From: Cyanophora paradoxa CCMP329
Taxonomy: Eukaryota > Plantae > Glaucophyta
Assembly (NCBI GenBank): GCA_004431415.1
Contig: QPMI01000674.1
Span: forward strand, 1-64,000
Direction: 5' to 3'
Length of the DNA: 64,000 nt
Below are positions 6,473 to 51,521 of the stretch, in pieces. Position 1 is the stretch's first letter. Each line of letters opens with the position of its first letter. The translations under genes and the position numbers were made by a program. The notes under the pieces are model-generated. The model was given only the letters and a program-made list of their open reading frames with translations. It did not search any database and was not told the origin of the DNA.

Positions 6473-6664
6473 AATAATCTACTTTTAGGCAGCATAAAAA
6501 TGCGAAAGGGGCGGCTCTGCGTAGAGCTTGATGAGAGCTTTACAGGGAAAAAAAGAGCGCTCAAAACGGCCAATCTGGTGAGGAGATATTCGCGTTTGGA
6601 GTTCCTTAAGTGGCTCTAATTGAACATTTTAGAAAAGTTCTTATAGAGCTCTATAAGGAAAAAG

Positions 6665-6800
6665 CCGCCTACTGCTGTACGGTAGGCATGAGGCTCTACC
6701 GGTAGGCGAGTAGGCAGGGCCCTACTGTCCTACCGCCGGCGGCCTGTGCCTACCGGTCTGCTGTAGACACACGGGCTCGCCTACCACTGCGGTAGGCTGG
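6665..6800. repeat. GC-rich array of CCTAC/GTAGG iterons in both orientations (putative terminal or origin element)
   Basis: gcctactg, ggtaggc, ctaccggtaggc, gtaggc, ccctactg, cctacc, gcctaccgg, gcctacc, ggtaggc within ~135 bp. Confidence 0.7.
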
Positions 6801-6802
6801 CT

Positions 6803-6843
6803 CATATATGTATATGATATATATGAAAAAAAACAAGTTTCGG
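6803..6843 (+). repeat. Left copy of a short imperfect inverted repeat flanking element B
   Basis: catatatgtatat..atatatgaaaaaaaacaagtttcgg resembles the reverse complement of 26963-27011. Confidence 0.45.
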
Positions 6844-6946
6844 TAAAAACTACAGCGCCGTGATCGCCATGACGCGGCGAGTCCGGAAAGCTATGATATA
6901 TATATATATGTCATGTGACATTATGATATATCATATACATATATCA

Positions 6947-8007
6947 TTATGGTATATACAATCCAAAGAACCATCTGATATTATAATATGAAGAAGCTCC
7001 ACCACTGACACTATATGATATTTTGATGGAATCATTAGCTTGAAGGTCAACTATTATTTCCAATCCATTGTTTGCATACACAGATGGATAATTATTATTA
7101 ACTTCAATTCCAGATGAGCTTCCGTTTTTCTGTAAAAATGTTGTTATAATACCTGGTCTTCCAGCCGTATAACAGGATCCACTAAATGTGACAAGATAGT
7201 TTCCTGTAACAGGGGCAGTAAAAAGCCCTGTCGCAGGATCGAAATGATTTCCTTGGTTCACTATGACTCCTGTTGTTGGATATATATTTATTGAGGAAAT
7301 TGTTGCAGTTATTGACCCATTTGGTTGCTGTTTTGTTGCAAAGAAACGAGGATGGCTACTTAATTTGAGATATTTGCTTGTCGGAAGTGTGAGATGTTGA
7401 ACAGTTGTGTTATCTGTCTGAATAGTTTTTTGAAGAGAAAGAATGGTATCCCATTCCTCTTGTAATTCATGACTGTGTCACTCATGTTGTCAATCTCAGG
7501 TGTATTTATTCTTGTTGTAAGTGTGAGAGTTCCATACTGAATACTCCCTGAAAGCCCACCATTAAAGGTCATCAATCCTGCAAATGAACATGTCCCACTC
7601 ACAGTCAATTGATTTGCTGTCAGAGTTCCTGCTACATTTGCTCCATCACCAATGTAGGCTCCTCCACTTTTCACCACAAGAGCAGAATTATTGCTTGTAT
7701 TACCAAAAGTAACTATCTGTGCTGTGGTGAATCCACCCACATTATCATATATTGCTGAATTGGGGACTACCTGACCTGCTTGAACTTGGTTTTTATTCGA
7801 GATTATAATGCCTGTGGTTCTAATCTTGCCTCCATTTCGATCACATCGAATTTCTTTGACCCTCAGTATACTGTTCTCTGTGAAAGAGGTATTACTTGTA
7901 GTTTCAGTGCAAATAAAACCGGGTGTGGAGTCGACTACTTCATGAGAGGTGCTGTGGAGTGATTTGGCTGCAAGTTCATAGTTTGGAATCTCTAAAAGGG
8001 AGGTCAT
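6947..8007 (-). CDS. Structural/fibre protein with C-terminal C1q (TNF-like) domain, frameshifted near 7430
   Basis: ATG at 8007 (MTSLLEIP). N-terminal FTENSILRVKEIRCDRNGG matches 48875-49891 (FNETSILRVKELRADKAGG). C-terminal NQGNHFDPATGLFTAPVTGNYLVTF is the C1q signature. Confidence 0.8.
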
Positions 8008-8026
8008 CTTTATAATTACGAAATAG

Positions 8027-11000
8027 TTAAATTGCGACAGCAATGTAATGAATTGTAACTGGAAATCCTGGTCTGTCAAAAGAACTTAATGGAACTATGT
8101 CAAGCTCACAAGTGAAATAGCTACTGTAAACTTGTTTAAGCCTAACATACATTCGATAGTAGTAGGCTGTCTCATTGTGTTGTATACCAGTTGTTACAAT
8201 AGGAGGGTTAGCAAAGCTGCTGTTGAAATTAATAGTGAGGTTAAACCTATGGTCAGGATTTGCCCAAAGATAAGGAGTAGTGTAAACATACGTTCCTGCT
8301 TGGATTTTCCATTAAAATATGCATTGAGTTGACTGGAAAGATCTGCCTCTGTAATACATCGACTGATGGTCGCATTATTTGAGGGGTTCATAGCATAGAA
8401 ATTTCTTGCATAGGCATTTCCACGAACAAGTAAGGTTTTATCAAAGTAATTCTGCGAATTGTGGAAGAACCATGTTTCTTCAAACATAGGTCCTGCTGGT
8501 TCTACAATCTGACCTGATCCTACATACATTGTGTTGTTGGCTCTGATTGTGGTGGCTGTGAAAGGATCAAGAGTTGGTCTATTGGTCAAATCATTGTAGT
8601 TTCCTGAGAAAATTGCAGGTTTGTTATAGATATCTGTATTCCAATCATGAGTGTGTGCAAAATCTGTAATCTCTGCCTTTGTGTGGGTGTGACCAACATA
8701 TGCAACATTTCCAAGATCTGTAATCTCTGCCTTGGTATGGGTGTGACCCACATATGCAACATTTCCGAGATCTAATATCTCTGATTTAACATGAGTGTGA
8801 GCGAAATTTGTGATATCTGCTCTTGTGTGGAAGTGTGCAAAATCTGTAATTTGTGATTTGGTGTGAGTGTGTGCAAAATCTGTGATTTCTGCCTTTGTGT
8901 GGGTGTGTGATCTATTATTTAGATCAAGGAAACTACCCGAAAATGCAACAGGATGCAGATTTGCAGCAGTAGGTTTATTTATGAGATCATTATAATCTCC
9001 TGTGAAAGAGATGGTCTTTAGTTCACCCCTTCCTACATAATCAGAAGGGAGATCAATCTTAATGGGCATAATAGCTGGATCATCAGGTATCTCATACTCA
9101 CCTCCTGGATGAACCACAGGAAAGGTTTGATTGCTTTCAGTATGGACAAAGAAGTTACATGCTGTTACTGTTCCATCAATAGTCCCACCTGTGAGAGGGA
9201 GGTAATTGCCTGTAACACCAATACCTATACCTGCAATGATTGTATTTAGTTCTGTTTCATCTATGTAGTTCTGAGCTTGAAGGTAATCCTCTGTGACTAC
9301 TCTCGAAATGCTCTCATTGTGTATGTTTTTTGCAGCCATTCTTTGATTGGCTTCCAGAACCCCACCATAATCTGTTTTAATCCATGCAAGCTCTGCCCTT
9401 CCATAATTATCATTTGCAGTTCCCACTATGGGAATGTAGGAATACTTATCTCGACTGAAAACTATCATTGGTCTTGAGCCATCTAAGCTGCTTACATCTG
9501 CTACATGAACCTGTATAGCAGAGTTGTAATTTTGGTAGGTTGCTGGGTCTGTTGGGACTCTGAATGTATCTGTGGGAATGTCAGCCTCCATGTAGCTTGA
9601 CACAAAGATATTTGGTATGGTTGCTCCTGGTGGTGGTGGGGTTTCAAAAGAGCCTGGTAATGTCCTAATATGAAGTGGTCCTCTCATAGCTGAATTTGCA
9701 AGTGTCCCATTCACATGAACATAGTGTTCATTCAAAAAGATCCTTTCAGGGATATTACAAGTCTGGTAAAGAGAAACCCCAAGTTATCAAGAGGCTCCAC
9801 CTTTGCAAATTCTGGTTGGTCATTGATCTCATCCCAAATATGTTCATGTTTGCTTGGTGGGAACTCAGTTGGAATCCCATCAATTTCACCCCAATCATGC
9901 CTGTGATCCTCTGGTGGATACTTTTGAGGTTTGCCTAAGATCTCATCCCAATCATGATTGTGATCCTCTGGGGATACTTTGCAGGTTTATTATTAATTTG
10001 TTCATAATCAGGAAAGAACTCCCAGATCTCAGGTCGAAATCCATCTGGTAATAATTCCTCATGGGGTTCATAAGGTTGCTCATAATCAACAACTGGTGGA
10101 TCATGCCCATCTGGCAAATACTCCTCATCAGGTTCATAGTTCTGCTCATACTCAAACTCTTGTGGATCTAAGCCATCTGGTAGTATCTCCTCCTCATTGG
10201 GATCAAACTGATCATATTCATATTCTTGTGGGTCAAAACCATCTGGTAAATATTCTTCCTCATCTGGAACGAATTGATATTCATCAAGCTCTAATATATC
10301 GATTTCAGGAGGTAAATACTGCTCATCTATTTGCTTTTTTGGTTCAATTATAGGTTTATTGCGAACTTGCTCCCAACTAACAATGTGCTGCCCAAAGGCT
10401 ACATCTTCAGTTGCTGTGTATTCTCTTCCAGGTTGCTTCTTTGGTGTTAAATCGGGTGGTCCATTGGGAAATGGAATAGGGAATGGGACAGTAGGTCCAT
10501 TGGGACCATAATGCTCAATGATTTCTCTTAGGGTTTTCTCACTTACAAGCTTCTCTCCATTTGCATACACATTGCTGCCATGGATATTTCGCCATTGCCT
10601 GGTTCGAATTCCAAGGTCTTTCACATTGCTATACAAAGGCAAAAGGTGCCTATCCATTTCGACTAAATCAGGGTGTAAATGGATTGCTACTGGTTGACTG
10701 GGGCTACTGTTGATTGTAATTGATGGCTTTTTTTGATGGACATCTTTTGGAGTAAAGAACCCAAAAGGCTCATTTCTTGCAAAGTCATATGTAATATCCT
10801 TGGGGTAGACATCATTTGTGTAGGAGACCTGATTTGTATTGGCAATGGGACCCACTTGCAATACTTGGGGGACCTCAGCTTTTGCAGTGCTGCCCTCATT
10901 GTAAATTCGTAAAGCTGTGTTCTGTTTGCCCTGCTCATCTTGAACATTGAAAATCAATCGACCACTATCGAACCTGGAAGGTATATCTGGGTGAGTGCCA

Positions 11001-11282
11001 CTGGTTTTTAGTTTCCTAGGTCTCCTTCTTGTTGCTTTGATCTCTGCCACTTGGTTTGCTTTCACATTACCCAAACTAAAAGCAACACTGACCTCCTCTT
11101 TATCTGGATCGGTTTGATTCACAGATAAAGCATGCTCCCTTGATTGAGTCTTTGATGAATTATCAGAGCTGTGGTCAATGAAACTGAACCCTTTACTTTA
11201 ATATTATCAAAGTTCACATGCTTGGTGCTGCTTGCATTATCATCTTGAATGGTTTCTAGATTGGTGGGTAATTGAAGCTCAT
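8027..11282 (-). CDS. Long tail-fibre-like protein (HxH repeats, acidic repeats, C-terminal H-type lectin/gp53-like domain), frameshifted
   Basis: Joins ORFs 9935-11122 and 8194-9735 with an alternate-frame C-terminus (KIQAGTYV...INFNSSFANPPIV...IHYIAVAI*). Homologous to 42056-44056 (FDSGRLIFNVQDE) and 45792-48854 (DGSRPMIVFSR...LEANQRMAAKNIHNE). Confidence 0.8.
8640..8910 (-). repeat. Intragenic HTHTKAEITDF(A) tandem repeats
   Basis: Six to seven copies of the H-x-H-x-x-x-(E/Q/D)-I motif typical of trimeric viral fibres. Confidence 0.85.
10020..10300 (-). repeat. Intragenic acidic ~21-aa repeats (P.EE.LPDG.DP...Y)
   Basis: Four copies of LPDG (CCATCTGG on the plus strand) spaced about 63 bp apart. 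Confidence 0.8.
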
Positions 11283-11324: not shown

Positions 11325-12871
11325 ATGCCTCTCAAGGTCGTTTTAAGTCTTTCTGGCGGGGGTGCAAGGGGCATTATCATAACCAGGCTGCTAAAAGAAA
11401 TCGAAAATCGAACTGGCAGAGATAATCGATCTTGTGGATCTTGTGAGTGGAACTTCCACTGGTGGGATCATTGCAATAGGTTTGAATATAGGCATCCTGA
11501 TAACCAGGTGAACCTAAACTGACAGCAAACGATTTACACAATATTTACCTAACTCAACTGCCTTGATTTTCGCAAATCCTCGAAATATCATCGAAAATGC
11601 CCTTTTAATACAAAGTATGATGTGGGACCCTTGGAGACTGCAATCAATTCAGTTACTGGTGAATCACTAATACAGGATTCCCTAAAGGACATTGTGATTA
11701 CATCCTTTGATACTCAGAATATGAAACCAATATTTATCACAAATGACAACAATTACAACTTTATGCCTGTAAGATTGCTGCTAGGGCTACTTCTGCTGCT
11801 CCTACATATTTTCTCCTGTAAGCATTGTTGATTTCAATCGGGGAGTATATGTCTGTCTCATTGATGGTGCCATTTCGGGAAACAATAATCCCAGTGTGTG
11901 TGGTTACAGCCATGCAAAGAAGATTTACAGTGATGATGATGATATATAGTAATAAGTATCTCTTGTGGAGAGGTGGACCCACATTTAGAGTCTGATTATG
12001 TGGGTTATGCTTATGAGACTGTGAACAGCTGGGGAATTCTCTCATGGATTGCCTCAACAGATGGAAGCCCATTGATTAACATGCTCATGGCTGCAAGTGA
12101 GCTTTCTGCCCTTGATAAGATGGAGGAGTTGTTACCCTACAACTATGATCAAGATTATGGTAGATACTATAGGCTATCGGTCCCTCTTCCAAACCATATA
12201 GTTAGCTCCCTTGATGACACTTCTAAAATCCCAGATATGCTTTCTTTCACAGAAACCTACATTGCAGCAAACAATGATATGATCAATAAGCTTTGCAGCC
12301 TACTAGTAGCAAACTATGAACTAAAGAACCCTTCAAAGGCTTACATTTCATCCACTCTCACTACATCACCACCTTTGGATGCTAATTGGTATCAGCTTGC
12401 AGATGATGCCTTCACTGCCTCATCCTCTGTGACTGGTAAAGAGCCTTTCATGGCTAGACCTTCAGCATTTGGCTGGGAAGCTGGAGCCTATGCTCCTGAG
12501 CAGATATGGGAAACCCCCACTGAATACCTTCAAGTTGCTTTTCCATATACTTTTGAACTCTCCTCTGTGATTGCCTATGGATCAGGGGACACCAATGCTT
12601 TTATTAAGACTTTCAATGTGGCAACATCCACTGATGGGATCAACTGGTCTTTTATTCGATCAGATGGGCAAAACAAAATATATGTCTGTGAGAACATTAA
12701 CAATGCTCACAACTCTGGTGATGTGGCTCTATTGAGTGGGTTCCCTCTCAGCATCAAGGATGCTTTTTACATAGGTTTTCTCTGAGAATAAGATATATTC
12801 GCATTTATCCCCTTGTGTATGTGAATGCTCCCACAATGAGAGTTGACTTTACAGGTGCCTTTATTCGATAA
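11325..12871 (+). CDS. Patatin-like phospholipase with C-terminal F5/8 (discoidin)-like domain, frameshifted
   Basis: LSGGGARG, GTSTGG, RATSAAPTYF, IDGA; C-terminal EYLQVAFP...IKTFNVATSTDGINW...MRVDFTG. Orthologous to intact 40519-42012. Confidence 0.85.
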
Positions 12872-13787
12872 ACTCCAACTGAAAAGAATTATCGATTCCA
12901 TTCATATCAATCAGTTCACCAAAGTAATCTTTAAACTCCACAGTGAGTTCCCTTATCACCAGGTTTCTGTCATTGATTTGAATAAATTCTGCATGTTCAC
13001 CACTATGGTAAACATAGCCCCCTATATCTTTACTCAATTGCAATCTAAGGATAGCTCCCTGGTTTTGTGGTTGCGATTTTGGAATTATATTGTGTCTGCT
13101 GGCAAAGGGGACAGCTCTTTAATATGCATGTACAGATACTGCTCAGCATTCATATCAGACATCTTCCTGCTGTCAAAATAATATTGCAAGGGCTTAGAGG
13201 AGAGTCTGGGTCCTGAGAAGGTGATTCCCATGCTGGGTGATCAGGTGTAATAGGTTTGCCATCATACTTTAAAAGGTTCTCAGGTCGATAGGGAGATCCA
13301 CCAACAGGAGGAGTGCTATAATACCCAGTGGTGTATTCAGTAGAACTACACCCAAAAGCTTCCTATTCTCTGGTTGCTTGCAATAAAACGAAACTCATGG
13401 TTACTGTAAAACTCCACTTTATAGGTAGTTGGGTTATAGAATATCTTGAACTCAAAAGCTACTGTTTTGCCTGCAATGTTTGGAAGCTTGAATAGTTCAG
13501 CCCATAATTATAAGGGTGTGTTACCCCAAAATGACCCTGATTGATGTAGCCACTGGGAAGGGGATACACTTGTTGTGTGATCACTTGGTTATATGAACCA
13601 TCTTGGTAATTAAACTGAACTGTTAGATGATCAGTTCCCACACTGTTATAGATCTGTTTGGAATCTCTGCATATAGAACCCTGCATTCCCTTGGTCTCTC
13701 TACTGGAGTTGTGAGGGTGACCCTGTAAGAGTTTTCATTTTGTCCTTGGCTTCTATCCCTGCTATCAATATTAACGAGCCGGTTCAT
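12861..13787 (-). CDS. Minor capsid (penton)-like protein 2, frameshifted
   Basis: MNRLVNIDSRDRSQ...RVLYAEIPN at the N-terminus; C-terminal LTVEFKDYFGELIDMNGIDNSFQLEF matches the penton C-terminal motif of 39667-40512. Confidence 0.75.
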
Positions 13788-13816
13788 TTTAATATATAAA
13801 TATAGATAAAAGAAGA

Positions 13817-14827
13817 ATGCCTGTGGATTACATCGAGGTTAGCTCATTTAATACAATCTCTGGTGATGGTCCCACATCAAGCTTTGTGGCTAGACTCCCC
13901 AGTAGTTATGAGAATGTGAGGGCTGTGAGACTGGTCTCAGCCGAATTTTATAACAGTATCCCTATGGTGAGTGGTGAAACCAAAGCAGGAGATGTGACAG
14001 TTGACAATGCATTTAGCATTTATTATTCTGAACAAACTCCTGGAGCTGGAAGCTCAGGAATTCCAACAGTTCGCCCAGCTGCTGACTATGAACAATGGAA
14101 ACAATTCATTATAAGTCGAAACACCCCCATCCAAAGCCACCAGCAACTGGTGAATGTAATTAACTCTAAATTCGAAGGCAGAAATCCCCAACCATCCATT
14201 CGCTGCAAATGGGATGAATCACTGAAACGAATTATATTCCACTCAGCAGTACCATTTTACTTGGCTTTCTCAGTAGCTGTGAACCCAAGCCAACAAACAA
14301 TCCAAAAGCTGTTGAGTTCAGCTAGACTGCTGGGTCTTGATCCTGGAAGATATGGTAACTCCCCAATCCAATCACAGGTCTATGATGCTCTCACTGATGG
14401 AATCTTTACTGGTGGTCGCGTGAATGGCATTATATCTTCTTTTGAGCCTGAGAAGACCAGGGACAGTGTTTTGTTTGTGAGAGTAAAGGAGCTGGGTGAT
14501 CTGGTGCAATGTGGGGATGGTCTTCTGACTGGTTACTTTCACAAAATAGTGGTCCCTGATAAAGACTATGGTGAGCATGTTGTTTACAATTCAACAGAAG
14601 CTCACCCACTTTACAAATACTATAATAAAAAGGTTGGATTATCCACTTTCTCGGTTGATATTGTAAATGCTATTAATGAACCAATTGATTTTGAGGGTCA
14701 ACCTGTTCATCTTACCTTTGAAATTCGCTATGGTGATGAGCCAGCTGGGGACCCAGTTTATGAATACTTCAAGATGCGAATGTCACAGCTTCACCCTTCC
14801 TATCCAGTTATTACAAACTTCGCATAA
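13817..14827 (+). CDS. Minor capsid (penton)-like protein 1
   Basis: Intact 336 aa; ARLPSSYENVRAVRLVSAEF and IDFEGQPVHLTFEI, the single-jelly-roll penton pattern of PLVs and NCLDVs. Confidence 0.8.
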   Translation: MPVDYIEVSSFNTISGDGPTSSFVARLPSSYENVRAVRLVSAEFYNSIPMVSGETKAGDVTVDNAFSIYYSEQTPGAGSSGIPTVRPAADYEQWKQFIISRNTPIQSHQQLVNVINSKFEGRNPQPSIRCKWDESLKRIIFHSAVPFYLAFSVAVNPSQQTIQKLLSSARLLGLDPGRYGNSPIQSQVYDALTDGIFTGGRVNGIISSFEPEKTRDSVLFVRVKELGDLVQCGDGLLTGYFHKIVVPDKDYGEHVVYNSTEAHPLYKYYNKKVGLSTFSVDIVNAINEPIDFEGQPVHLTFEIRYGDEPAGDPVYEYFKMRMSQLHPSYPVITNFA

Positions 14828-14880
14828 ATTAAGGATCATTGGTAGATTTTTTATGTTGCAGTATAATAAAAGAGAATATA

Positions 14881-16246
14881 ATGGATATCACTTCCACTCT
14901 TCAAAGACTTTCGCTGAAAGAAGCCCTAACAACCCCAGAAGAGGCGAAAGCCTTTTTCCTGGATAACTCCCTTATGCTTGGTCTCGAATCCAAATCTAAG
15001 CCAGTTCTAGTTGTTGTGAATCCCAGCAATACTTTTGAGAATAATGTTGGAAATCGCATTTCCTTCAAGCTACCTCGCTACAATTTCTGTGGAAAACTCG
15101 AACTTGCTTTCGACCTTCCAGCCATCACGTTTGCTGGTGATACTGACCTAGTTCGCAATGGATACACTCGCCCAGTTGGTGCTTTAGTTCAGCGACTTGA
15201 AATTACCTATGGATCTTACACCTACCATATTCCATCTGATTTCCTTGCTCATTTCCCCTGGTCTATTATTCGGAGGATCAACTAGCTAAAAAGAAGCGAT
15301 CAATGGGCATGGTTCATGGCATCCCTGCTCATGGAACCAACCGCCTTGGTGGCTCATTCTTTGTTGAAATCCCTGTGCCTTGGCTAAATCACTACCTTCC
15401 CCTTGGTGCTTTATCTGGTGAAATGGTTGTTACTGTTTGGTTTAAGGATGCTGGAAAGGGTTATGTTGAAACTTCCTATGGTGGTCGCTCTCTCCCTGTT
15501 GTTGGTGGGACAGTTGCTGATAAGACAGAAGATGATGGTCTTGGTGATACTGCTAATGCCACACTTGCCCATGTTGGTCAAAATATCACAACTTTCAGTC
15601 TTGGTGCAACAACTCCTGTTATTTCTATTACTTCTCCTCGCCTTTACATGCATGCTATTAATGTTTCTGATGAGCTTTTCGCTACTGTCATTGAAAAGGT
15701 TAAGACAACTGGCATGGCTATTCCCTCCCTTGATATTGGATTTGTAGATGCTAGTGCTTTCCCTGCCAAGGGCAATGCCCAACCCAATCGAATTAACCTC
15801 TCTCAAATCTCAGGTCTTGTATATGCTCTGCTTGTTTCAGTTCGTGATCATGAAACTGTTGACAAATCCAATGGCTCCCACAGTGTTCTTAAGACCTATG
15901 CCAACTCCAAAGACATAACATTTACAACTGAAATAAATGGTCAGCGACTTTTTGCCACTGAGCCAATTTCCCTACTCAAAGGTGCTGAGCTAATTGCTGA
16001 TGCCTTCAAATGCTCTAACATGGATAAGGTTGCTGATCGCTATGTCCTTCAGGACTCCATTCTGCTTGATGGAGAAAAGGCAATTCGAAATATTGCCCAG
16101 TCTGGTTATGTTGATTTAACAAATTCCTCTCTTCCTTCCTCACCCTCTACATGCCCTCAGATAAGGTAATCGATGTTAATGTTCGCGCTCTCATGCATAG
16201 CTTTATTATTGTCGACAAAGATGGTTTACGCAGAATTAATTTATAG
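14881..16246 (+). CDS. Major capsid protein (double jelly-roll, NCLDV-like), frameshifted
   Basis: ORFs 14839-15285 and 15303-16169 plus tail (DKDGLRRINL*). Aligns by eye with intact 37363-38676. Confidence 0.82.
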
Positions 16247-16311
16247 ATTGTTACGATTTTCAGTCTCCCTGCATTATTTTTATATGTCTTTATTAAGAAA
16301 GATATACAACA

Positions 16312-17090: not shown

Positions 17091-17118
17091 AATTATCTCT
17101 CATTCTAATAAAGATACA

Positions 17119-17853: not shown

Positions 17854-17875
17854 TTATCTCTGTTTTATTAGAGAC

Positions 17876-18377: not shown

Positions 18378-18529
18378 GATACTTGAGAAAAAGCGGTCTC
18401 AGTATGCTACTGAGGCAGCTATTAAAGTTTACAGACAGGAACTGGTGTTCGCAACAAAAAATGACTTAAAGAAAAAGTAGATAGGTTGTATTGAGGAAAA
18501 ATTATTTTCGTATCTACTATTAAAGAGAA

Positions 18530-36443: not shown

Positions 36444-36445
36444 GA

Positions 36446-39650: not shown

Positions 39651-39666
39651 CTTACTATAATAGATT

Positions 39667-40512: not shown

Positions 40513-40518
40513 GCGCTG

Positions 40519-42055: not shown

Positions 42056-45000
42056 ATGTCGTTCCTGAATCCGAGACCCGATGCACGAGTAATTAATTCG
42101 ACCACGCAGATAGAGGACACTGACCAGGTAAACACCGAAATTCGTGGGTCTATCAGAATAAATTACAATGCAGACCGCGAAGATCCAGTCAGTGGAACAC
42201 CGAGCAGACCCGCAGCTTTGCAGTTAATGAACGTCGAGAAGGGGGATCATAAACTTGGAATCGACTTTTTACTTGATGATAACGAGCGAAACAGAGTTGC
42301 CAGCATCCAGGCGACTCGTCAGTTACCGAAAACAGTGCGCTATAATCGCAGGAACATTCCCAAAGCATTCGACAAGGGTCGCTTAAACTTCTTTATTCAA
42401 GATGAGAGCGGTTTCCAGAATGCAGCTATGAGAATTGTGGATAATAGCACGCTTATAGCCGGGGTTTCAAACAGACAGACAAAGGTAGAAATTGTTCACG
42501 GTTTATCTACAAGTAATTTGACAGCAAGTAACATTACCACGAATACCCTCAACGTAAACTCGCTTAACTCCGAGTCGTTTTTCGCCACTAATGTCGCTAC
42601 ATGCAATCTAACCCTTGATTCCTTTATAATTCAGAAGAGCAACACTGTTCCCCAAATCACAGAGGGCGTTTTTACAGTAGATCCCGCGAAACCGACCTTA
42701 GAAATTGTCGAAAATGGGAACGTTGTGGATATAATTGGCGCCAATGCTCCGAATGTGAGATCCTTAGCACTTGATAAAACGACTATATCATTTGCAGAAG
42801 AAATTCCGGCATTTACCACAGAGAAACAGGCACTGAGAACAGATCATGTTCACATTACCAGAGACAATATAAACGATCTTTTGGGCAAGGACATTGTAAA
42901 GGCGTTTTTGGAGTTTGAAAGGAGCAAGAACACCAAAGATTCCAGCCAGGATGGAACCCTCACGACTCACACAACCGAAATAGCCGCAATACAATCGGAG
43001 ATTAATGCTCTGTTTGCAGCAGATGGAGCGCTTGCAATTTCTTTGGCTCACATTCTCTCAAAAAGGAACATTTACCCTTCTATCGATAACACATACCGAG
43101 TTGGTCTCTCGAATCTGAGATGGTCAGAGGTTCATGGAGTTTCCATGTTTGCCTCCAATTTAATCCTTCCATTAAATCACTCACTCCGACCTAATCAGAT
43201 TCTTACCAATGATAATGCACTGATCAGCTACACCGACTATAATAGTAACCTTTCCCGCTCGGTTTCGCAAACTGAGACCTACACTGTCGAGGGATACCCT
43301 CAGCAGCTCGCAAATGGGGTCTATGTCGCTTATGTAGGCAAACCTACATATACATTCACTTGGGATCAGTTGGGTGTCACAGGTTTCGAGACGAATATAC
43401 CCACTGTTTCATTGGTGGATCACACTACTTATTATAATCCTATCTATAACAATAATGAATCTAATAAAGCATTTATCCAAAATGTCACCTCCACAGGGTT
43501 TCAGGTTTCGTTTGTCATTAACGAGACATACAATTTACTTATCATCCGAAACAACTCATTGAGTTCCGAAGCTACTATTAGTTTCACTCTTAACATCAAT
43601 TATATCACCCCTGAATTCGATAGCAAACCCAGAGTGAAGGTTTACCGAGATTTACAAGGTAGCAATATCGTGCCCTTCTCACAGAATTTCGATCTTGGGG
43701 CGAATTCTTTGAGGTGGAACACAGTTTATACTTTGAATGCAAACACCTGTAATATTGTGGTCGCAGGGTCATCGGCTACTATTGGAGATCTGACCGCCCC
43801 TTTCAAAAAGGAGTATCTTAAAGAGCTGTATATTACAAAGTCTGATTTACCAGATGCTATTTCGTTGGTGCTCTCCCCGACTCCCAGTATATCCTATCAC
43901 AATGTGAAAGACACCAGTAATGTAGTGCAGAGGGGAAGCAAAGTATTCCAGGCATCCGAGATATCAGCAACAACATATAGATACCTTGCAGCGGTTCCAG
44001 CGAATTTTAATTTCACATTTGAGACACCATTTGTTTCCCTCCTACTATTGAAATAACTGACACGAATTTGTATGTGATCAATAATGGGTCGACCACCTCT
44101 ATTAACAATGCACCAGCCGGCTACTCCCCATTTGTTGCAACTAACATAACAACCACCGGCTTCACACTTGTCGGAAATGCAACAGTGACATATGCTCTTA
44201 CAGCATATCCTGTTGGGTTGTATTTTGCGAAATTTAATCTTTCAGCGATCCCACCTGTGTCCCTTTCTCCTCCCTTTACTATCAATTGGAAGGCAACAGG
44301 AACTATTCCGCGATTTGACCCCGAAGACCGCTTGAAAATAAGGTATCCTCTCGATGTGACCGACCTCCATACTACGAGAATAAATGGGCAGAATTTCGTA
44401 TTTAATGGAACCAATGCAACTCTGATCGATAATCGAGTAACGAATAATTACTTTTTCGATTCTCGATATATTAATACTTGCAATATTGTCATACAGAACA
44501 CGTTTGAGAATCGAAGTAAGACCTTATCAGTCACCTTGCCCACTCACTCGAATGTCTCAGATGGATTTCACTATTATCTTTTCAATCGCAATTACACCTC
44601 ATATATTCCATACCCTTCTGAGACTGTCAACATGAGCTATCCCAGAGTCACCCTTACATCGACCAATGCTGACTTCTTTGGATCCACGGACTTTATGACC
44701 TTCTTTGCTTTCACATCGTCCACAGATGGTCTCTTAGTTTATTACACTTTCAGATATGATGCTGTTTGGACTCAGCTTGACAGCCACCCAAATACAGATG
44801 TAATCGAAGTGGGCGATAAGAAATATATTAAAACCGCTTCCCCATGGGTTTGCACTGTCCGGCTCGATGACAGATACACTCCTAACCTAAATAGCATTGG
44901 AATGCACTCGACATGCAATATTTATGTGCAAGGTGCAATTTCGGCTACCAAATATTTCGAGGGAGGGAACTGTGATGCAGGGCATCGATTGCTATCGCGA

Positions 45001-45762
45001 AATGGATTCTTTGAGTCATTCAGTGGGACAGCTCTACCGCCCTTTATCAGGGACACAGTGTATGATACCACATGCAATATTTGGGTGTGTCGATCTGTGA
45101 GCAATCCGCCTGTGACAAAGGAATTATATAAATATCTGTCAGATACCTATGGTGCAATTACAGGGTCTTCAACAGGAAATCCAGCGACGGCTCCTATCGT
45201 ATTTGCGAATGCATACACAGCGCCCACATCATTAGCAGGGTCGACAGAGCCGCCACCAAACGATCCCAATCCGAACCAGCCTAACCCAGATCCCGATTCA
45301 AAAGATCCCCCTACAACTGATCCAGATCCGAACACGACACCTAATAATCCCAGTAATCCTACAAATCCAGTCGGATCGCCAGGAATGGATCCCGGGACGT
45401 TAGTGCTTCTAATTCTCTTGCCAATTCTCGGTGCCCTTGGACTTGTGCTTGCATACAAATTCCGAGCTTTATGTTGTGCTTGCATAGACAGAACCATTGC
45501 AGGAGCAGGTAATAAATACTCAACACCAGAGCTTAATGTGACCCAAACAGCCGAAGGAGATGTGGGGTTAGAGGTGAGGTCAGCCGAGGGGCATGGTCTT
45601 AGTGTAGTGAGAACTGATCAACCACCAGCAAGTAGGGCAGCACCCAAAAAATCACGAGCAGAACGAATGGCTGAATCAATAATGAATGAAAATGCAGACT
45701 TTATGGCGGAAATTGCACAACGAGAGGGCAGAACATACGAGCTTCTCCCAATGCGACCTTAA
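42056..45762 (+). CDS. Large fibre/spike-like protein with gp53/H-lectin-like modules and a C-terminal transmembrane anchor, one frameshift near 44040
   Basis: ATG at 42056 (MSFLNP). FETPFVS/PPTIEIT joins ORFs 41849-44056 and 44068-45762. DLGANSLRWNTVY fibre motifs, P/N/D-rich linker, LVLLILLPILGALGLVLAY-KFRALCCAC. Confidence 0.75.
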
Positions 45763-45791
45763 TTTTTGTAGAATGCCTTAATAGAGAAATA

Positions 45792-48700
45792 ATGACGGAA
45801 CCCATAGTAGAAACGACAGTAAAGAATGCTGTATTGGATAATCAATTTTATATAACCCATGCCAATATACCCAGTGAATCCAATGACCTAATCGTTAATC
45901 TAAAAGGCTATGTGATGGGAGCTATGGCTTCTAACCTATGGAATGACATTTTTGGTTACGAGTTTGGTCACATCTATGACATTGCAAATGGGATTGGCTA
46001 TGTGGATGCAATGGCAGGCACAGCCTTTCGCAATTTAAATTGCAACTGTGTGGGAGGGTGGATGTTTCAGATCTGTTCAAATGTCGATCCTACTATTGAT
46101 CCCGCCACGATTACCTTTGATTGCAATCTGTTTGCCCCCAAAACGATTTTCTCCATCACTTGCAATCTCGTTAATTCGGATGTGCCCATTGTGGCACCTG
46201 TAATAGGTGCATCAAATATGTATATCCAAAGAAATCCGGTCGTGCATACAGGCGCCGAATTTATATTAGGCGACAACACCCCAATTAGTCGAATCGAACT
46301 ACCCAATTCTCACAAGCATTTGTGGGAACATATCACCAATGCCCCATTTACCTATCCGCCCAGTTCTCACGAGCATTTGTGGGAGCATATCACCAATCGA
46401 CCATTAACCTTCCCACCTGATCCACACACTCATGATTACTTGTCTCTCAAAGGTGGTGTTATTTCATCTAATCTTACAATTTCGTCAAACCTTACAGTCA
46501 CAAGTAACATTTATGCCAGTAACATTAATGCCAGTAACATTTACAGCAGTAACCTATGGGCAAGTAATATTAATGGAAGTAATGTAATAGTCGATTATCT
46601 CACTGTGAAGATTGAAGCAAACCTACCAAATCATCCGACATCGAATGTTGTTTTAGATTGGTTAGCAAAGCAAAAACACACAAAAGCAGATATTACAGAT
46701 TTTGCACACACTCACACAAAAGATCAAATAACAGATTTCGCCCACACTCATTTATGGGAGCATATCACGAATCCGCCATCGACCTTCCCACCAGGAACAC
46801 ACACTCATGATTACTCAGAGATTACTAATAGTAACCACAGGCACCCATGGGAGGAAATAGATGAGAAACCACGTTTTGCATCGACAGGTGATTTAGTAAA
46901 TGGTGACGGATTTTATGGGGTTAGTTTCTATCAGAGTGACACCATTCCTGAAAGATTACAATTAAGTGAATACTATTTACACCGAAAAGGAATTGAAGCA
47001 GGCACCACAATGGAAGGAGAGCTATATGTTAAACAACCCACAAGAACAACATTAGTAGCAGCTGGTGGCGATGCATTAATAGACACCAAACCAGGTATAT
47101 TTTTAACAAGTTATTATAATGCGGATATCCCAGTTACAGCAGGTTTACCACCGCTTCCATCTGATCCAGCAACTTATGATGACAAAGACGCCATTTTACA
47201 AGTGAATGTAACAGATGTAAGCGCAACCGATGGTTCACGTCCGAAAATTATATTTAGTCGCTCGAAATTCAATTACATCCCACTTGTGGGACAACCATAC
47301 GATGATCACGGAAAATGCGAGATGGCGTGGATTAAAACAACAACAGGTGGCGCCTTAGAAGTCAATCAGAGAATGGCGGCTAAAAACTTACATAATGAAA
47401 CCCTTTCAGGTGTGGTAACAGATGATTACCTCGAAAGCAAAAACTATGTAGATGATACAGAACTTGCAGCAATTCTTGAAGATTATGTAACAGATACCGA
47501 ATTAACGTCGGCTCTTGGGGATTATTTACCTCTCACAGGTGGGACTCTTACAGGTGATGTGCATGCTCCGAATTTCTTTGTGGACACTCCGAATGATCAG
47601 TCATTCCCTGTTGTCCACCTTGGTGCTGAATATGTATTAGATCCAAACACTCCATTTAGTCGACTTGAATTACCCAATGTTCACAAGCATTTTTGGGAGC
47701 ATATTGTCAATCCCCCATCGACCTATCCACCTGATTCACACGATCATGATTATTTACCACTAACAGGTGGAACAATTGCAGGTGATGTGCATGCCTCGAA
47801 TTTCTTTGTTACTACTCCAAATGATCAAACATTTCCTGTTGTCCACCTTGGTGCTGAATATGTATTAGATCCAAACACCCCAATAAGTCGACTCGAATTG
47901 CCCACGAATTCCAAATTTAATGTCGCTGATGACTTCCCTAACAGTCAAAACCTCATGTATTTCACCTCTGAAAATCAGCTTTTGGGAGCATTCTCGCCCA
48001 TTGAGCTGTCGATACCGAAACAAAAGGTGAGCTACAAAGAACTCACAGATGTCCCGGCGGGATTTAGTGGTAAATGGACTGATATTACTGAGAAGCCAAC
48101 TTGGAGTAGTGTAGCATTCACAGGTGATTACTATGATTTAGCACGAATTCCCGATTTCACCACTTACATACCTCGCTGGATCGATCAAAGTGTTATTATA
48201 TCCGAATCTACACTCCCTTTCAATGGGACATGGGATAGGTTATTTACTAAACCGAATTTGCATGCTGTCGCCACAAGTGGAAACTACAACGATTTAACTA
48301 ACACCCCTATTGCACCGACCTTGCATGCTGTGGCTACAAGTGGGAGCTATACAGATTTAGTTAATACACCAAACTTGCATGCTGTGGCTACAAGCGGGAA
48401 CTATGACGATTTAATTAACACACCCACTTCGCCACCTACTCACAATCACAGCATAGAGTTGCTCACGAATTTCGGTAATTATGTGAATCCAAATGCATAT
48501 GTGCAACAAGGGACAGCGGATGTAGTTATACCTAATCAAGTTTATACAGTAGGGCAAGTGTTTACAGCATCAGGAACCGTTACATTTTCTACCCCATATT
48601 ATAGTGATCCAATAGTTAATGCTACTCTCGAAAACAGTATTATTTTAACAAGTGTCGATTTCACCAATAGCATATATCTCTCTGCTGAATATCAGTTCGG

Positions 48701-48854
48701 GAATCGCATTGGGTTCAAAAATAAATTCACTTGGATTGCCATATTTACTTGTTATTCGGCAATCAATTATACGAATGTGCCTCAAAACGAAAGAACGCTT
48801 AAACTTCATTGGATTGCTGTCGGACCTCTCCAAAACAATAATATTCTCACGTAA
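45792..48854 (+). CDS. Tail-fibre-like protein
   Basis: HxHxW repeats, HTKADITDFAHTH, YLPLTGG, LHAVATSG.Y.DL repeats, C-terminal H-lectin-like domain. Homologous to 8027-9735. Confidence 0.85.
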   Translation: MTEPIVETTVKNAVLDNQFYITHANIPSESNDLIVNLKGYVMGAMASNLWNDIFGYEFGHIYDIANGIGYVDAMAGTAFRNLNCNCVGGWMFQICSNVDPTIDPATITFDCNLFAPKTIFSITCNLVNSDVPIVAPVIGASNMYIQRNPVVHTGAEFILGDNTPISRIELPNSHKHLWEHITNAPFTYPPSSHEHLWEHITNRPLTFPPDPHTHDYLSLKGGVISSNLTISSNLTVTSNIYASNINASNIYSSNLWASNINGSNVIVDYLTVKIEANLPNHPTSNVVLDWLAKQKHTKADITDFAHTHTKDQITDFAHTHLWEHITNPPSTFPPGTHTHDYSEITNSNHRHPWEEIDEKPRFASTGDLVNGDGFYGVSFYQSDTIPERLQLSEYYLHRKGIEAGTTMEGELYVKQPTRTTLVAAGGDALIDTKPGIFLTSYYNADIPVTAGLPPLPSDPATYDDKDAILQVNVTDVSATDGSRPKIIFSRSKFNYIPLVGQPYDDHGKCEMAWIKTTTGGALEVNQRMAAKNLHNETLSGVVTDDYLESKNYVDDTELAAILEDYVTDTELTSALGDYLPLTGGTLTGDVHAPNFFVDTPNDQSFPVVHLGAEYVLDPNTPFSRLELPNVHKHFWEHIVNPPSTYPPDSHDHDYLPLTGGTIAGDVHASNFFVTTPNDQTFPVVHLGAEYVLDPNTPISRLELPTNSKFNVADDFPNSQNLMYFTSENQLLGAFSPIELSIPKQKVSYKELTDVPAGFSGKWTDITEKPTWSSVAFTGDYYDLARIPDFTTYIPRWIDQSVIISESTLPFNGTWDRLFTKPNLHAVATSGNYNDLTNTPIAPTLHAVATSGSYTDLVNTPNLHAVATSGNYDDLINTPTSPPTHNHSIELLTNFGNYVNPNAYVQQGTADVVIPNQVYTVGQVFTASGTVTFSTPYYSDPIVNATLENSIILTSVDFTNSIYLSAEYQFGNRIGFKNKFTWIAIFTCYSAINYTNVPQNERTLKLHWIAVGPLQNNNILT

Positions 48855-48874
48855 TAATAAAGAACAATCAAAAG

Positions 48875-49891
48875 ATGTCGACTGTGTTCACTCCGGTTTT
48901 TAGTTTGAGTGCCTCAGCTGTCCATAACGTGCAACACACTGTTTATGATCTAAACGAGTCATTCCCTTCGACTGAAACAGCGAAATCTGATTCTTTCAAT
49001 GAGACTTCCATACTCAGAGTCAAAGAACTCAGAGCCGACAAGGCTGGTGGAATCGTTAAAGCTACTCAAATGATCGTATCTAATCGACCCGCAAAAACAG
49101 GGGATCTAATCACCAAAGATAATCTATATGAAGGTCAAGCGGATTATAAAACAGCTTTTAATCCGGCTGATAGGAAATCAGCGGCTTTTCAAGTAGTTAG
49201 TGGTGGGGCATGGATTGGGACTGGACTTGGAGTGAATGGGAATGCAACAGTGAGCGGGAATGCAACAGTTACTGGAAGCCTTACAGCTGGATCATTTGGG
49301 ACAGTTAAAACGACGACTATTGATTCTGGGGCAAATACAGAGTTGGTGATCAAGCGAAATAATGAGAATATCGCTTCTACTTTCACAGCATCACACACTA
49401 ATGCAACAGGTGGGGCAGTTGCAGGAACTTATAGCTGGAAAGGTCTCACTATTAATGGGACTAATTCCTATCTTGCACTTCCTAATCATCCCCGGTTTTG
49501 TGTTGGTCTTTCTGGAACTGTAACTGGTTCGGCTTTTATTGGAGCCTATGGGCATACATTTCTAAACCATGGAAATCACGTAAATGTTTCCACAGGTTAC
49601 TTCACAGCTCCTGTGTCAGGTCATTACAGATTCGTGTTCACTGGCATAACAAGTCTAAATAATGTTGATACATATGTAGCATTTAGAGTCAATGATGGGC
49701 TTCCTAATGGTAAAAATCTCGATGGTTATACATCAGCGTTAGGAACGAACTATCATAGAACTATATGCTTAAATGTCATTGTAGCAATGTATGCTGGTGA
49801 CACAGGAAGGTTATATGTTGGAGGAACAATTATGGGAGCTGCTGGAACAGCAAATTGTCAATGGTCGGGCGAATTAATTTCAGCACTATAA
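48875..49891 (+). CDS. Structural protein with C-terminal C1q domain
   Basis: HPRF...NHGNHVNVSTGYFTAPVSGHYRF...WSGELI; ortholog of 6947-8007. Confidence 0.85.
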   Translation: MSTVFTPVFSLSASAVHNVQHTVYDLNESFPSTETAKSDSFNETSILRVKELRADKAGGIVKATQMIVSNRPAKTGDLITKDNLYEGQADYKTAFNPADRKSAAFQVVSGGAWIGTGLGVNGNATVSGNATVTGSLTAGSFGTVKTTTIDSGANTELVIKRNNENIASTFTASHTNATGGAVAGTYSWKGLTINGTNSYLALPNHPRFCVGLSGTVTGSAFIGAYGHTFLNHGNHVNVSTGYFTAPVSGHYRFVFTGITSLNNVDTYVAFRVNDGLPNGKNLDGYTSALGTNYHRTICLNVIVAMYAGDTGRLYVGGTIMGAAGTANCQWSGELISAL

Positions 49892-49899
49892 GTAAAAGA

Positions 49900-50163
49900 A
49901 TGTCGCACAACTATCAAGTTGTTCTAACTGACACTGAAAAGCTGGGAATGGAATACTGTGCCTACTCTGTTCAGGATTGGATCGATAATGCGGCTCATAA
50001 TAGGGCGAGAATCGCGATTGATGAGATTGTGGACAAAGAAGTTAAATCGTGCATTGCTGCTGGAATTCCGATTCCACTCACAAAGGAAGCGATTGTAGAG
50101 CAAGCGTTTGCAAGGGGAACTGTGCAAAAGGCAAGCGAAATTCCTGTGAGTGCTCCTATGTAA
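49900..50163 (+). CDS. Small phage-like protein following the C1q gene
   Basis: MSHNYQVVLTDTEKLGMEYCAYSVQDWIDNAAHNRARIAIDEIV resembles small proteins I recall next to C1q fibres in aquatic phages (not searched). Confidence 0.6.
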   Translation: MSHNYQVVLTDTEKLGMEYCAYSVQDWIDNAAHNRARIAIDEIVDKEVKSCIAAGIPIPLTKEAIVEQAFARGTVQKASEIPVSAPM

Positions 50164-50393
50164 AGAATTCGAATTCGAAGAATGAGAGATGGGTTTATTG
50201 TTATTTTTCATAGATCATGCATAAGAAAGGCATGTATCTTGCATAGTGGGCGGGGCGCGAGTGTATTTTAACGTGGTCTATCGTCGTACTTTGTCGATCA
50301 TCGTACTTTGTCGATGGGGTGCGCAAGTTTGTGCAGGTGGGCATTTTCGGCAGCACAAACTTGCTTTAAAAACTATAAAATAGAAATCATGCA

Positions 50394-50717
50394 TTAGCTC
50401 GTCCGAGTCTCACTATAACACTGTCGGCATTTATAGTAGAGACCATCCTTCGTACTTTGCTTTTTATTATACTCGCTTGCAGGCTTCTCAATCTTGCAAT
50501 CGGGGCATATTTTCGATTGTACTTCGATTTTCGGACGCGTTTTTAAGACTTTGTGATACAGGTCAAGGTGATAGTCGCGGTTGCACTCGATGCATCTTGG
50601 ATTCAATGCGACATTACCAGTTTTTAATTTACGCAAACCAAAACACGATGCAGGTCTATCTACTTTGCAGATAGTGCATTGCTTACTTTTGGGTAGTGGG
50701 AGTTGATTGCTCGGCAT
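50394..50717 (-). CDS. Small protein with two CxxC...CxxC zinc ribbons
   Basis: KQCTICKVDRP..CF...CIECN and KICPDCKIEKP..EY.K....DGL...CRQC. No nuclease domain. Confidence 0.7.
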   Translation of the reverse strand: MPSNQLPLPKSKQCTICKVDRPASCFGLRKLKTGNVALNPRCIECNRDYHLDLYHKVLKTRPKIEVQSKICPDCKIEKPASEYNKKQSTKDGLYYKCRQCYSETRTS

Positions 50718-50867
50718 CTTTATAGCTATATAGCGGGAAATCTTTAAGTGGGGATAAACGCATTTCATATGTTGATTTACGCTATCGGTGGGGGTCACCT
50801 TGATTTTTCAATTTGGGTAACTGAAAACAGTTTGGAAACGATTGGGAACATTTCGTAAAAATATGGG

Positions 50868-51068
50868 TCTTACTGTCCTTACTGAGATATCGAGAGAGGG
50901 TTTTAGGGCTTACTGGGAATGGTAAGGAATTAGAAAAATGAAGAATGGAAGGGTTTCGTGATTGGTTTCAGTAAGGAGAGGTTAGATGTTTGAAAAATAC
51001 AGTGCTATTTTATAGTTTGTTACTGAGCCTTACTGAGAAATTCGAAAATGGATAATGGGCTTACTGAA
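50868..51068. repeat. CTTACTG/CAGTAAG iteron array at the outer end of element C
   Basis: tcttactg, ccttactga, gcttactg, cagtaagg, gttactga, ccttactga, gcttactga within 200 bp, just before the GC shift. Confidence 0.7.
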
Positions 51069-51521
51069 TGTGGTAGTGGGGAAGGAAAGAAGAGGGCGCG
51101 CAATTGGTGGGGTTCTCCTGGAAGCGAGCTACTCGACAACAAGCCTCACCGAAGGACTGATGTCCAGCACGGTGCGATCCTCGTAATAATAAGTGCCATA
51201 GAGAATGGCGGCGTCGGTGAGACTGCGCACGCCCGCGGACAGTCAGCGGCTCGCAGTACTAGTTTATACCGGTACAAATTAAACGCGACGCATGCGCAGG
51301 TGCAGCTGCAGGTGCCTATATTTGATTGCATTTGCTCTTGAGATTCTATACGTATATCTAATGAAAATTAAAGCAGGATTCCGGGGGTACGACGCACGTG
51401 GCCTTCACGTAGCCGAGGCCGCCCACCACGCTGGACGCGACGAGGGTGCCGGTCTTGCTGGAGCCAGTCTGAAATGAATTCGAAGGAACAGCAGACTCGT
51501 TAAGCGGAATTCGAAGTTCAT

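What the first reader, a model, noticed from the sequence alone, without database searches (positions are those of the whole stretch)
6660..51070. Two mirror-image endogenous viruses joined integrase-to-integrase, sharing a virion chassis but with swapped replication modules
Seen: read from each outer end inward, B and C have the same order: iteron array, C1q, fibre, patatin, penton2, penton1, MCP, ATPase, coiled-coil ORF, CHxxCC ORF, AT-hook ORF, replication module, integrase. Only the replication slot differs substantially. B has AEP-SF3 helicase + GIY-YIG + pPolB; C has one PolB-SF1-HNH fusion. Known: PLVs exchange replication modules. Inference: a distinct virus family with a plug-in replication cassette whose members insert next to one another, or a composite ~44 kb two-headed unit in which the partners complement each other.
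Basis: partly seen in the sequence, partly recalled or inferred. Interest (0 to 1): 0.85.

Follow-up and report, generated by a model that had tools for sequence, protein, structure and literature searches.

The report
One endogenous virus cutting into another
Two distantly related virus-like elements, each repeated many times in this genome, carry the same capsid and integrase genes in the same order but different DNA-copying enzymes; they likely sit end to end because one inserted into the tail of the other's integrase gene, not because they form one unit, and both nesting and enzyme swapping are already reported for such viruses.

Summary
The mirror-image gene order is real. Twelve of 16 C genes have B counterparts in the same order and relative strand, and the two integrases are sisters (95/91). 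Only the replicase between the AT-hook gene and the integrase is a true swap: C has a Tlr1-like polymerase-helicase-HNH, B has AEP-SF3 plus an exonuclease-degraded pPolB.

The 27.0-28.9 kb 'junction' is B's own terminal region and ends in a hairpin at 28927. C's integrase is cut at 28928. Other contigs leave or enter at exactly this point. There is no terminus at 6660. CpG content steps sharply at the join.

Best reading: a nested insertion of two multicopy sibling polinton-like viruses, not a 44-kb two-headed unit. No contig bridging the join was displayed. Nesting, double replicases, terminal palindromes and replicase swaps are published, and this scan noted a nested two-replicase pair on other DNA of this genome. 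New here: a very isolated capsid lineage, a promoter-like motif shared across the swapped slot, and an origin-like repeat both behind AEP-SF3 and in B's end.

The parts
1..6950 (+). Element A: a third, B-like element (penton, MCP, inserted HNH-type gene, ATPase, coiled-coil, AT-hook, CHxxCC, then non-coding end region); no replicase or integrase follows; runs off the window's left edge
   Evidence: 78-82% nt identity to B 13235-18358; HNH PHROG hits at 3133-3507; multicopy contigs span 5809-6252 and 6345-6635
6640..6810 (.). GCCTAC repeat array; likely inside A's end region, not B's outer end
   Evidence: 7 copies, shuffle max 6; flanked by motifs at 6521-6601 and 6851-6908 that resemble B's post-integrase region in direct orientation, 67-69%; contigs break both ways at 6960/6961
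6947..11197 (-). B: C1q-tipped protein, phage-tail-repeat fibre, and ORF homologous to C 42056; B's left terminus is missing here
   Evidence: Pfam C1q, PTR; tblastn
11331..18377 (+). B chassis: patatin-F5/8, penton2 (minus strand), penton1, MCP, A32 ATPase, coiled-coil, CHxxCC, AT-hook 1; patatin, penton2, MCP and ATPase frames are broken in the window
18490..22261 (+). B cassette: AT-hook 2, AEP-PriCT2-SF3 primase-helicase (19056-21667, frame broken near 19.5 kb), origin-like repeat, GIY-YIG
   Evidence: Pfam PriCT_2, DUF5906, GIY-YIG; one X1 contig joins 18489 to 22256 on opposite strands, and 2 contigs each in X2 and X6 enter at 22302 from other sequence
21664..21859 (.). Origin-like unit directly behind the AEP-SF3 stop: short iterated sites in opposed orientation around AT-rich spacers (function inferred)
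   Evidence: 66-67% identity over 186-203 nt to both 391-bp units at 27738-28466
22321..25565 (+). B pPolB: vOTU Cys/His, EndoVII insert and palm motifs kept; exonuclease motifs I and II altered and about 100 residues including motif III region missing
   Evidence: alignment with 4 of 4 IMG/VR relatives that keep these motifs; motif names recalled
25569..26954 (+). B rve integrase, 461 aa
   Evidence: Pfam rve; sister to C integrase
26955..28927 (.). B terminal region: AT-rich repeats, an optional ~280-bp block, two 391-bp units plus a partial third, TTAATCGA repeats, terminal hairpin
   Evidence: joints 27259>27546 and 27290>27570 in 3 of 4 runs link both halves in other copies
28855..28927 (+). 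73-nt terminal hairpin of B (29 pairs, a 2x2 GA/GA internal loop, 4 pairs, 3-nt loop); its last base is the junction
   Evidence: z -11.4, 0 of 200 shuffles; an X15 contig ends at 28927 and two others run on into different flanks
28928..30104 (-). C rve integrase, cut after residue 392; the last 19 codons in the window are read from B's hairpin
   Evidence: 3 X2 contigs enter at 28928 from sequence that reads like B's integrase tail (4 of 9 residues identical, against 1 of 9 for the window's tail)
30123..34433 (-). C Tlr1-like replicase, 1436 aa: vOTU (C351, H453), PolB palm (D648, K788, T900-D901 with the first Asp replaced), SF1 helicase, HNH
   Evidence: 1,347 relatives at E<=0.001; these residues match the majority in 39-40 of 40 aligned relatives; PMC11161782 section 9
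34604..42012 (-). C chassis: AT-hook, CHxxCC, coiled-coil, A32 ATPase, MCP (37363-38676), penton1, penton2 (plus strand), patatin; frames open
42056..50163 (+). C: 666-aa ORF, 579-codon ORF with a hydrophobic stretch (no B counterpart), 1020-aa fibre, C1q protein, 100-aa ORF
50394..51070 (-). C: HNH/EndoVII-like ORF and CTTACTG repeat array; probable outer end near 51070 (not tested with reads)
   Evidence: GC rises from 0.41 to 0.58 at 51 kb; no hairpin
18499..18509 (+). AAATTATTTTC promoter-like motif; exact copies also at 19031(+), 34472(-), 38716(-), each 31-43 nt before a start codon (B AT-hook 2, B AEP-SF3, C replicase, C MCP)
   Evidence: 4 exact copies in 1-51100 against 0.03 expected; with one mismatch allowed 6 against 3.4; function inferred

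Best explanation
B and C are two multicopy, distantly related endogenous polinton-like viruses that share capsid, packaging and integrase genes but not their replicase, and they touch here likely because a B-type element inserted into the 3' end of C's integrase gene. Shown: the shared gene order, the sister integrases, the two replicase types, B's hairpin ending at 28927, C's integrase cut at 28928, and other contigs leaving and entering at that point. Inferred: B's rve integrase joined the hairpin end into C by chance in a virus-rich region; the rest of C (integrase tail and inner terminus) lies left of the window or was deleted; B's own left terminus was lost where it meets A. Inferred mechanism of the swap: the replicase sits in a slot between an AT-hook gene with its promoter-like motif and the integrase, next to homing-type nucleases. 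C would copy itself by protein priming with the Tlr1-like enzyme. B carries two systems, an exonuclease-less pPolB and an AEP-SF3 cassette whose origin-like repeat also sits in B's end, and likely relies on the primase-helicase and the hairpin end, with or without pPolB as the elongating enzyme.
For: Three independent signs meet at 28927/28928: the hairpin's last paired base, the end of B-C integrase homology at C residue 392, and contig ends and loose ends in X15 and X2. The sequence that precedes 28928 in 3 X2 contigs reads like B's integrase tail and is absent from the window. One X15 flank of the B-type end matches GC-rich repeat DNA at 58826 (21 of 22 nt, 0 of 100 shuffles). Long contigs have depths tens of times those of the rarest contigs (X6: 1737-1806 on AEP-SF3, 1375 on C's replicase, against 46; X2: 3822-4108 and 2745 against 100). 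CpG o/e is 0.05-0.43 in 9 of 10 B gene blocks and 0.71-1.42 in all 7 C gene blocks. B and C integrases group at 95/91 among 18 rows, apart from the 3 Tlr1-linked integrases (100/100). Nested and tandem polisuviruses are reported.
Against: No contig bridging 28927/28928 was displayed (32 of 10,889 pieces shown), so the adjacency itself is not read-confirmed. No target-site duplication can be tested, as B's other end is absent. The window's A and B carry single-base frame breaks that the short-read contigs mostly lack while C's frames are open, so the two sides differ in assembly quality. Contig depth is not a copy number (tool warning). X15 is a guessed RNA run with only 19 contigs laid. The integrase tree has few rows, 9 of them found with C's own query; 2 distant rows (P0161, P0162) were left out. 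Origin and promoter functions are untested.
Confidence: 0.78

Rival explanations
1. The adjacency is an assembly error joining two repeat families.
For: No bridging contig shown; both sides are high-copy repeats; A and B are rich in frame breaks that short-read contigs lack, C is not; no whole genome was available.
Against: The join falls exactly on B's independently seen terminus and the two sides share no sequence that could seed a false overlap.
Confidence: 0.08
2. B-type elements prefer to integrate in or beside related viruses, which drives replicase exchange.
Against: Of the 2 other flanks seen, one matches GC-rich repeat DNA at 58826 and the other matches nothing in the window. Nesting is expected by chance where viral DNA is abundant or tolerated.
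Confidence: 0.1
3. B and C form a fixed 44-kb two-headed unit whose halves complement each other.
For: Near-perfect mirror symmetry; B's capsid and ATPase frames are broken in the window while C's are open.
Against: No shared outer repeats; no terminus at 6660; both halves have full gene sets; contigs branch both ways at the join; sharp CpG step; the B breaks that could be checked (19059, 19498, 22292, 24649, 7449) differ in the short-read contigs.
Confidence: 0.02
4. The inserted unit is larger than B: a tandem A+B element with two capsid modules whose left end lies beyond the window.
For: A and B lie in the same orientation with unbroken multicopy depth between them; B has no left terminus and C's missing tail is not in the window; contigs with tandem 70-78% identical capsid modules are reported.
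Against: Contigs break both ways at 6960/6961 and the commoner C1q variant differs from B's at 17 of 166 letters, so the A-B join may be private to few copies.
Confidence: 0.25

Closest known systems
Tlr1-like helicases of PLVs and transpovirons (Krupovic et al. 2024, PMC11161782; passages and section 9 read)
   Same: C's replicase has vOTU, PolB palm with the first motif-C Asp replaced, SF1 helicase and C-terminal HNH, beside an rve integrase
   Different: Only 26-37% identical to its best relatives; 6 IMG/VR loci with a long match to it show no tblastn match to C's capsid genes
Tandem and mosaic polisuviruses with replicase turnover (Barth, Ha, Aylward, bioRxiv 10.64898/2026.10.13.758929; parts 1-4 of 5 read)
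   Same: Tandem integration, homologous capsid modules with different replicases, genomes with a second replicase bracketed by repeats, nearby endonucleases
   Different: Their two syntenic examples are 70-100% identical and swap PolA for AEP or similar; here the chassis is only 22-50% identical in protein, and the integrase follows the capsid, not the replicase class
Endogenous virophages and PLVs of Halocafeteria seosinensis (bioRxiv 10.64898/2026.07.28.741278; passages and section 7 read)
   Same: Nested elements, pPolB together with D5 primase-helicase, terminal palindromes linked to non-pPolB replicases and rve integrases
   Different: Other host; no origin-like repeat shared between the cassette and the terminus in the parts read
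Glaucophyte and rhizarian PLVs noted in Bulzu et al. 2025 (PMC12220804; passages read)
   Same: Patatin fused to F5/8 discoidin domain, phage-tail-repeat fibres
   Different: The passages give no capsid type or gene order for these; the supplements were not opened and may hold this lineage
Oxyrrhis marina PLV (PMC12721341; part 1 of 7 read)
   Same: ~1,500-aa SF1 helicase-pPolB fusion; capsid with affinity to giant viruses
   Different: That fusion keeps a complete exonuclease; C's matches the exonuclease-less Tlr1 type
SaPI pri-rep-ori module (PMC9371898; passages read), as an analogy only
   Same: Iterated short sites in opposed orientation around an AT-rich centre directly behind the helicase gene
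   Different: Bacterial element; no homology tested

Membership tests
Polisuviricotina (polinton-like viruses in the broad sense) | [quoted passage not shown] | tested here: met
   Top 11 of 48,161 chains are DJR capsids, best Z 12.2, rmsd 4.7, 173 aligned; 83 BFVD matches at E<=0.001 led by MCPs; low-confidence model, N-terminal half only
Polisuviricotina (polinton-like viruses in the broad sense) | Single jelly-roll penton | tested here: inconclusive
   Ranks 1-11 are virophage, PBCV-1, adenovirus and EhV capsid or penton entries, best E 1.4e-3; model pLDDT 47
Polisuviricotina (polinton-like viruses in the broad sense) | A32-like packaging ATPase | tested here: met
   Pfam Pox_A32 E 1.9e-10 for C, 6.1e-12 for A; B by homology
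Polisuviricotina (polinton-like viruses in the broad sense) | 14-40 kb genome with terminal inverted repeats and target-site duplication | tested here: inconclusive
   Each is about 22 kb; only one end of each is in the window, no inverted partner found
Polintoviricetes (Maverick/Polinton) | pPolB plus rve integrase | tested here: met
   B only; its exonuclease is degraded
Polintoviricetes (Maverick/Polinton) | Adenain/Ulp1-type maturation protease | tested here: inconclusive
   No such Pfam family among 48 scanned ORFs; several ORFs stay unannotated and B's frames are broken
Polintoviricetes or Aquintoviricetes or unplaced MCP groups | MCP falls in the class's clade | not testable with these tools
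   No profile set of PLV MCP groups is held; 1 relative at E<=0.001, none in PDB by sequence
Tlr1-like helicases | vOTU Cys and His before the palm | tested here: met
   C351 and H453 match 40 of 40 relatives
Tlr1-like helicases | PolB palm motifs A and B, motif C without its first Asp | tested here: met
   D648, K651, Y653, K788, G796, T900, D901 conserved in 38-40 of 40; residue 899 is Arg
Tlr1-like helicases | SF1 helicase then GIY-YIG or HNH nuclease | tested here: met
   G988-K991, D1072-E1073, H1292-G1296, C1390-C1431 conserved; weak Pfam helicase hits
Tlr1-like helicases | Terminal-protein domain; no exonuclease domain | not tested
   No structure predicted for this protein; vOTU-to-palm spacing is about 200 residues
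   No similarity between 5900-7000 and 50100-51600 at E<=0.05
   Contigs branch both ways at 28927/28928

The most novel reading that the evidence does not exclude
B and C define a family-level lineage of polinton-like viruses with a fixed replicase slot, and B is caught mid-switch: a mobile, invertible AEP-SF3 cassette with its own origin has seeded that origin into the virus end, turning a protein-primed virus into a hairpin-ended one while its pPolB decays or is demoted to elongation, with capsid-only A elements riding along as satellites.
Probability: 0.2. Interest if true: 0.7.

Novelty: new member of a known kind. Interest (0 to 1): 0.4.

Why it matters
It is a clean natural case of replicase replacement in which capsid, gene order, promoter-like motif and integrase stay while the polymerase type changes. 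That runs against the reported tendency of integrase to travel with replicase only in part (both replicases here are PolB-derived) and gives named cis sites to test: the slot motif, the origin-like repeat and the hairpin. If the origin reading holds, it would explain why terminal palindromes go with non-pPolB replicases. The end-to-end arrangement itself is ordinary nesting.

Tried and rejected
No whole genome was held, so copies could not be listed. ESM Atlas gave no result. The word-seeded search found no relative of C's replicase although the full HMMER scan found 1,347, so the single MCP hit is no proof of isolation. No related loci for C's MCP in viral contigs, for its one relative in metagenome contigs or for C's integrase in viral contigs. 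The origin-like motif's 15 IMG/VR matches are single sites, none repeating the 13-nt site. Four loose-end motifs have no match in the window. A shared N-terminal cap between B pPolB and C's replicase is weak (5 of 5,000 shuffles at 60 residues, 69 of 5,000 at 100) and is not used. No hairpin at C's outer end. No RNA holder listed; nothing is claimed on expression. Earlier-finding look-ups by place near, sequence, words and relatives were empty. Bellas et al. 2023 (PMC10120064): a term search of the main text found none of 6 terms; its supplements and those of PMC12220804 were not opened and may list these elements, and preprint supplements are closed. A search for the host name with polinton and endogenous gave 1 paper; searches were seen as listings and showed no paper on this locus. 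EMALE paper PMC8547959 and PMC11296320: passages only. No complex was predicted.
Full report
What is in the window. Bases 1-51,070 are AT-rich (GC 0.30-0.49) and gene-dense; beyond 51 kb GC rises to 0.58-0.70. The AT-rich part holds three related elements. A (1-~6950) is 78-82% identical to B 13235-18358 on the same strand. B runs from about 6961 to 28927, C from 28928 to about 51070. No whole genome was held. Earlier unreviewed notes on this genome name the host as the glaucophyte Cyanophora paradoxa; I did not test that, though patatin-F5/8 fusions and tail-repeat fibres are reported for glaucophyte PLVs (PMC12220804, passage).

The shared chassis is real. Twelve of 16 C ORFs have a B counterpart, in mirror order and mirror strand, at 22-50% identity over their main segments. 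The MCP model is weak (pLDDT 40) but matches only double jelly-roll capsids in its top 11 rows and in the viral library. The penton2 model ranks virophage and PBCV-1 entries first without reaching E 0.001. ATPase, integrase, patatin, C1q and fibre labels come from Pfam and PHROGs. Four C ORFs have no B counterpart, so the replicase is the main but not the only difference. The capsid has one relative, at 61%, in the word-seeded search; that search is insensitive (compare).

The replicases. C's 1436-aa protein has 1,347 relatives. Its vOTU Cys/His, palm motifs, SF1 helicase motifs and HNH residues are conserved across 40 aligned relatives, and the first Asp of motif C is replaced. This is the Tlr1-like helicase of Krupovic et al. 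2024 (section 9 read), so the fusion is known. B has an AEP-PriCT2-SF3 gene, a GIY-YIG gene and a pPolB. Against 4 of 4 IMG/VR relatives, B's pPolB keeps vOTU, the EndoVII insert and the palm but has altered exonuclease motifs and lacks about 100 residues (motif names recalled). B and C integrases are sisters (93/94 among 13 rows; 95/91 among 18 rows), and C's does not join the three integrases that follow Tlr1-like genes elsewhere. So the integrase stayed with the capsid genes while the gene before it changed. An exact AAATTATTTTC lies 31-43 nt before B's AT-hook 2, B's AEP-SF3, C's replicase and C's MCP (4 copies, 0.03 expected; with one mismatch the excess vanishes, 6 against 3.4). Promoter function is inferred.

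The junction. The stretch 26955-28927 belongs to B: contigs in 3 of 4 runs join 27259 or 27290 to 27546 or 27570, skipping an optional block. It ends in a 73-nt hairpin whose last paired base is 28927. In run X15 one contig ends at 28927 and two others run on from 28927 and 28928 into different sequence; one of these matches GC-rich repeat DNA at 58826. C's integrase aligns with B's only to residue 392, the junction, and its last 19 codons are read from the hairpin. Three X2 contigs enter C at 28928 from other sequence, which in C's frame resembles B's integrase tail (4 of 9 identical, against 1 of 9 for the window's tail) and is absent from the window. CpG o/e steps from 0.29 in B to 1.14 in C and is low across B's chassis, AEP-SF3, pPolB and integrase alike, so B's modules have long shared one history that C has not. 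The simplest reading is insertion of a B-type end into C's integrase gene. Against it: no bridging contig was among the 32 pieces shown of 10,889, and no target-site duplication can be checked.

Copy number. Thousands of variant contigs lie on both elements (5,543, 3,040 and 2,254 in three runs). Long contigs are about 38-41 times (AEP-SF3), 22-26 times (the link to pPolB) and 27-30 times (C's replicase) deeper than the rarest contigs in X2 and X6. The tool warns that depth is no copy number; tens of copies is an inference. Several single-base frame breaks in B (near 7449, 19059, 19498, 22292, 24649) differ in most or all covering contigs, so they are likely assembly errors or private to this copy; the breaks in B's MCP and ATPase were not checked.

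The outer ends. Depth is unbroken over 5400-8000 and contigs break both ways at 6960/6961, not at 6660 (21 of 85 loose ends shown). The motifs around the GCCTAC array resemble B's post-integrase region in direct orientation. The array therefore likely belongs to A's end, and B's left terminus is missing. A has no replicase or integrase after its CHxxCC gene, and multicopy contigs cover that region. C's outer end near 51070 has a different repeat and no hairpin and was not tested with reads. The two outer regions share nothing.

The AEP-SF3 cassette. A 200-bp unit of opposed short sites around AT-rich spacers starts directly behind the AEP-SF3 stop and recurs twice in B's terminal region. This is the layout of SaPI origins (PMC9371898, passages), an analogy only. 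One X1 contig joins 18489 to 22256 on opposite strands, and contigs in X2 and X6 enter pPolB at 22302 from other sequence, so the cassette is likely optional and perhaps invertible; the inversion rests on one contig.

Comparison with the literature. Tandem integration, homologous capsid modules with different replicases and second replicases bracketed by repeats are described by Barth, Ha and Aylward (parts 1-4 of 5 read). Nested elements, pPolB with D5 primase-helicase and terminal palindromes are described in Halocafeteria (passages and section 7). This scan noted a nested two-replicase pair and a G-A hairpin end on other pieces of this genome (unchecked). Both elements work like polinton-like viruses; their class cannot be fixed here.

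Verdict. Observation partly confirmed, composite unit rejected, module swap supported and known. New member of a known kind; interest 0.4.

Noticed in passing
window 1-6950: Element A has capsid genes and an inserted HNH-type gene but no replicase or integrase before its end region; multicopy contigs cover that region, so a capsid-only, non-autonomous family is possible.
   Followed up: partly
window 6961-26954 against 28928-51070: B is strongly CpG-depleted (o/e 0.29; integrase 0.05), A intermediate (0.57), C not (1.14): different exposure to host methylation is one reading.
   Followed up: partly
window 27300-27545, 6640-6810, 27738-28580, 28628-28860, 50800-51080: Five unrelated short-repeat arrays lie in end regions; the first is missing in some copies, suggesting exchangeable binding-site blocks.
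   Followed up: partly
window 22321-22473 and 34281-34433: Weak ungapped likeness of the first 51 residues of B pPolB and C replicase (5 of 5,000 shuffles).
   Followed up: yes
window 44023-45762: C-only ORF with a Pro-rich linker and a hydrophobic stretch followed by Cys residues; may be a membrane protein, which with patatin hints at a lipid-containing particle.
   Followed up: no
window 51522-52520: A 332-codon minus-strand frame rich in Ala, Gly and Thr with no Pfam or PHROG match, just outside C.
   Followed up: no
window 52800-64000: GC-rich, GC-skewed frames with RNase H-like and Cys/His motifs (recalled, no Pfam hit) on opposite strands either side of about 60.6 kb, like decayed retroelements; one B-type end in run X15 is joined to this kind of DNA.
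   Followed up: partly
L022 2364-15413: A 16-kb IMG/VR contig with a Tlr1-like replicase, integrase and what look like penton, capsid and ATPase genes that gave no tblastn match to C's.
   Followed up: no
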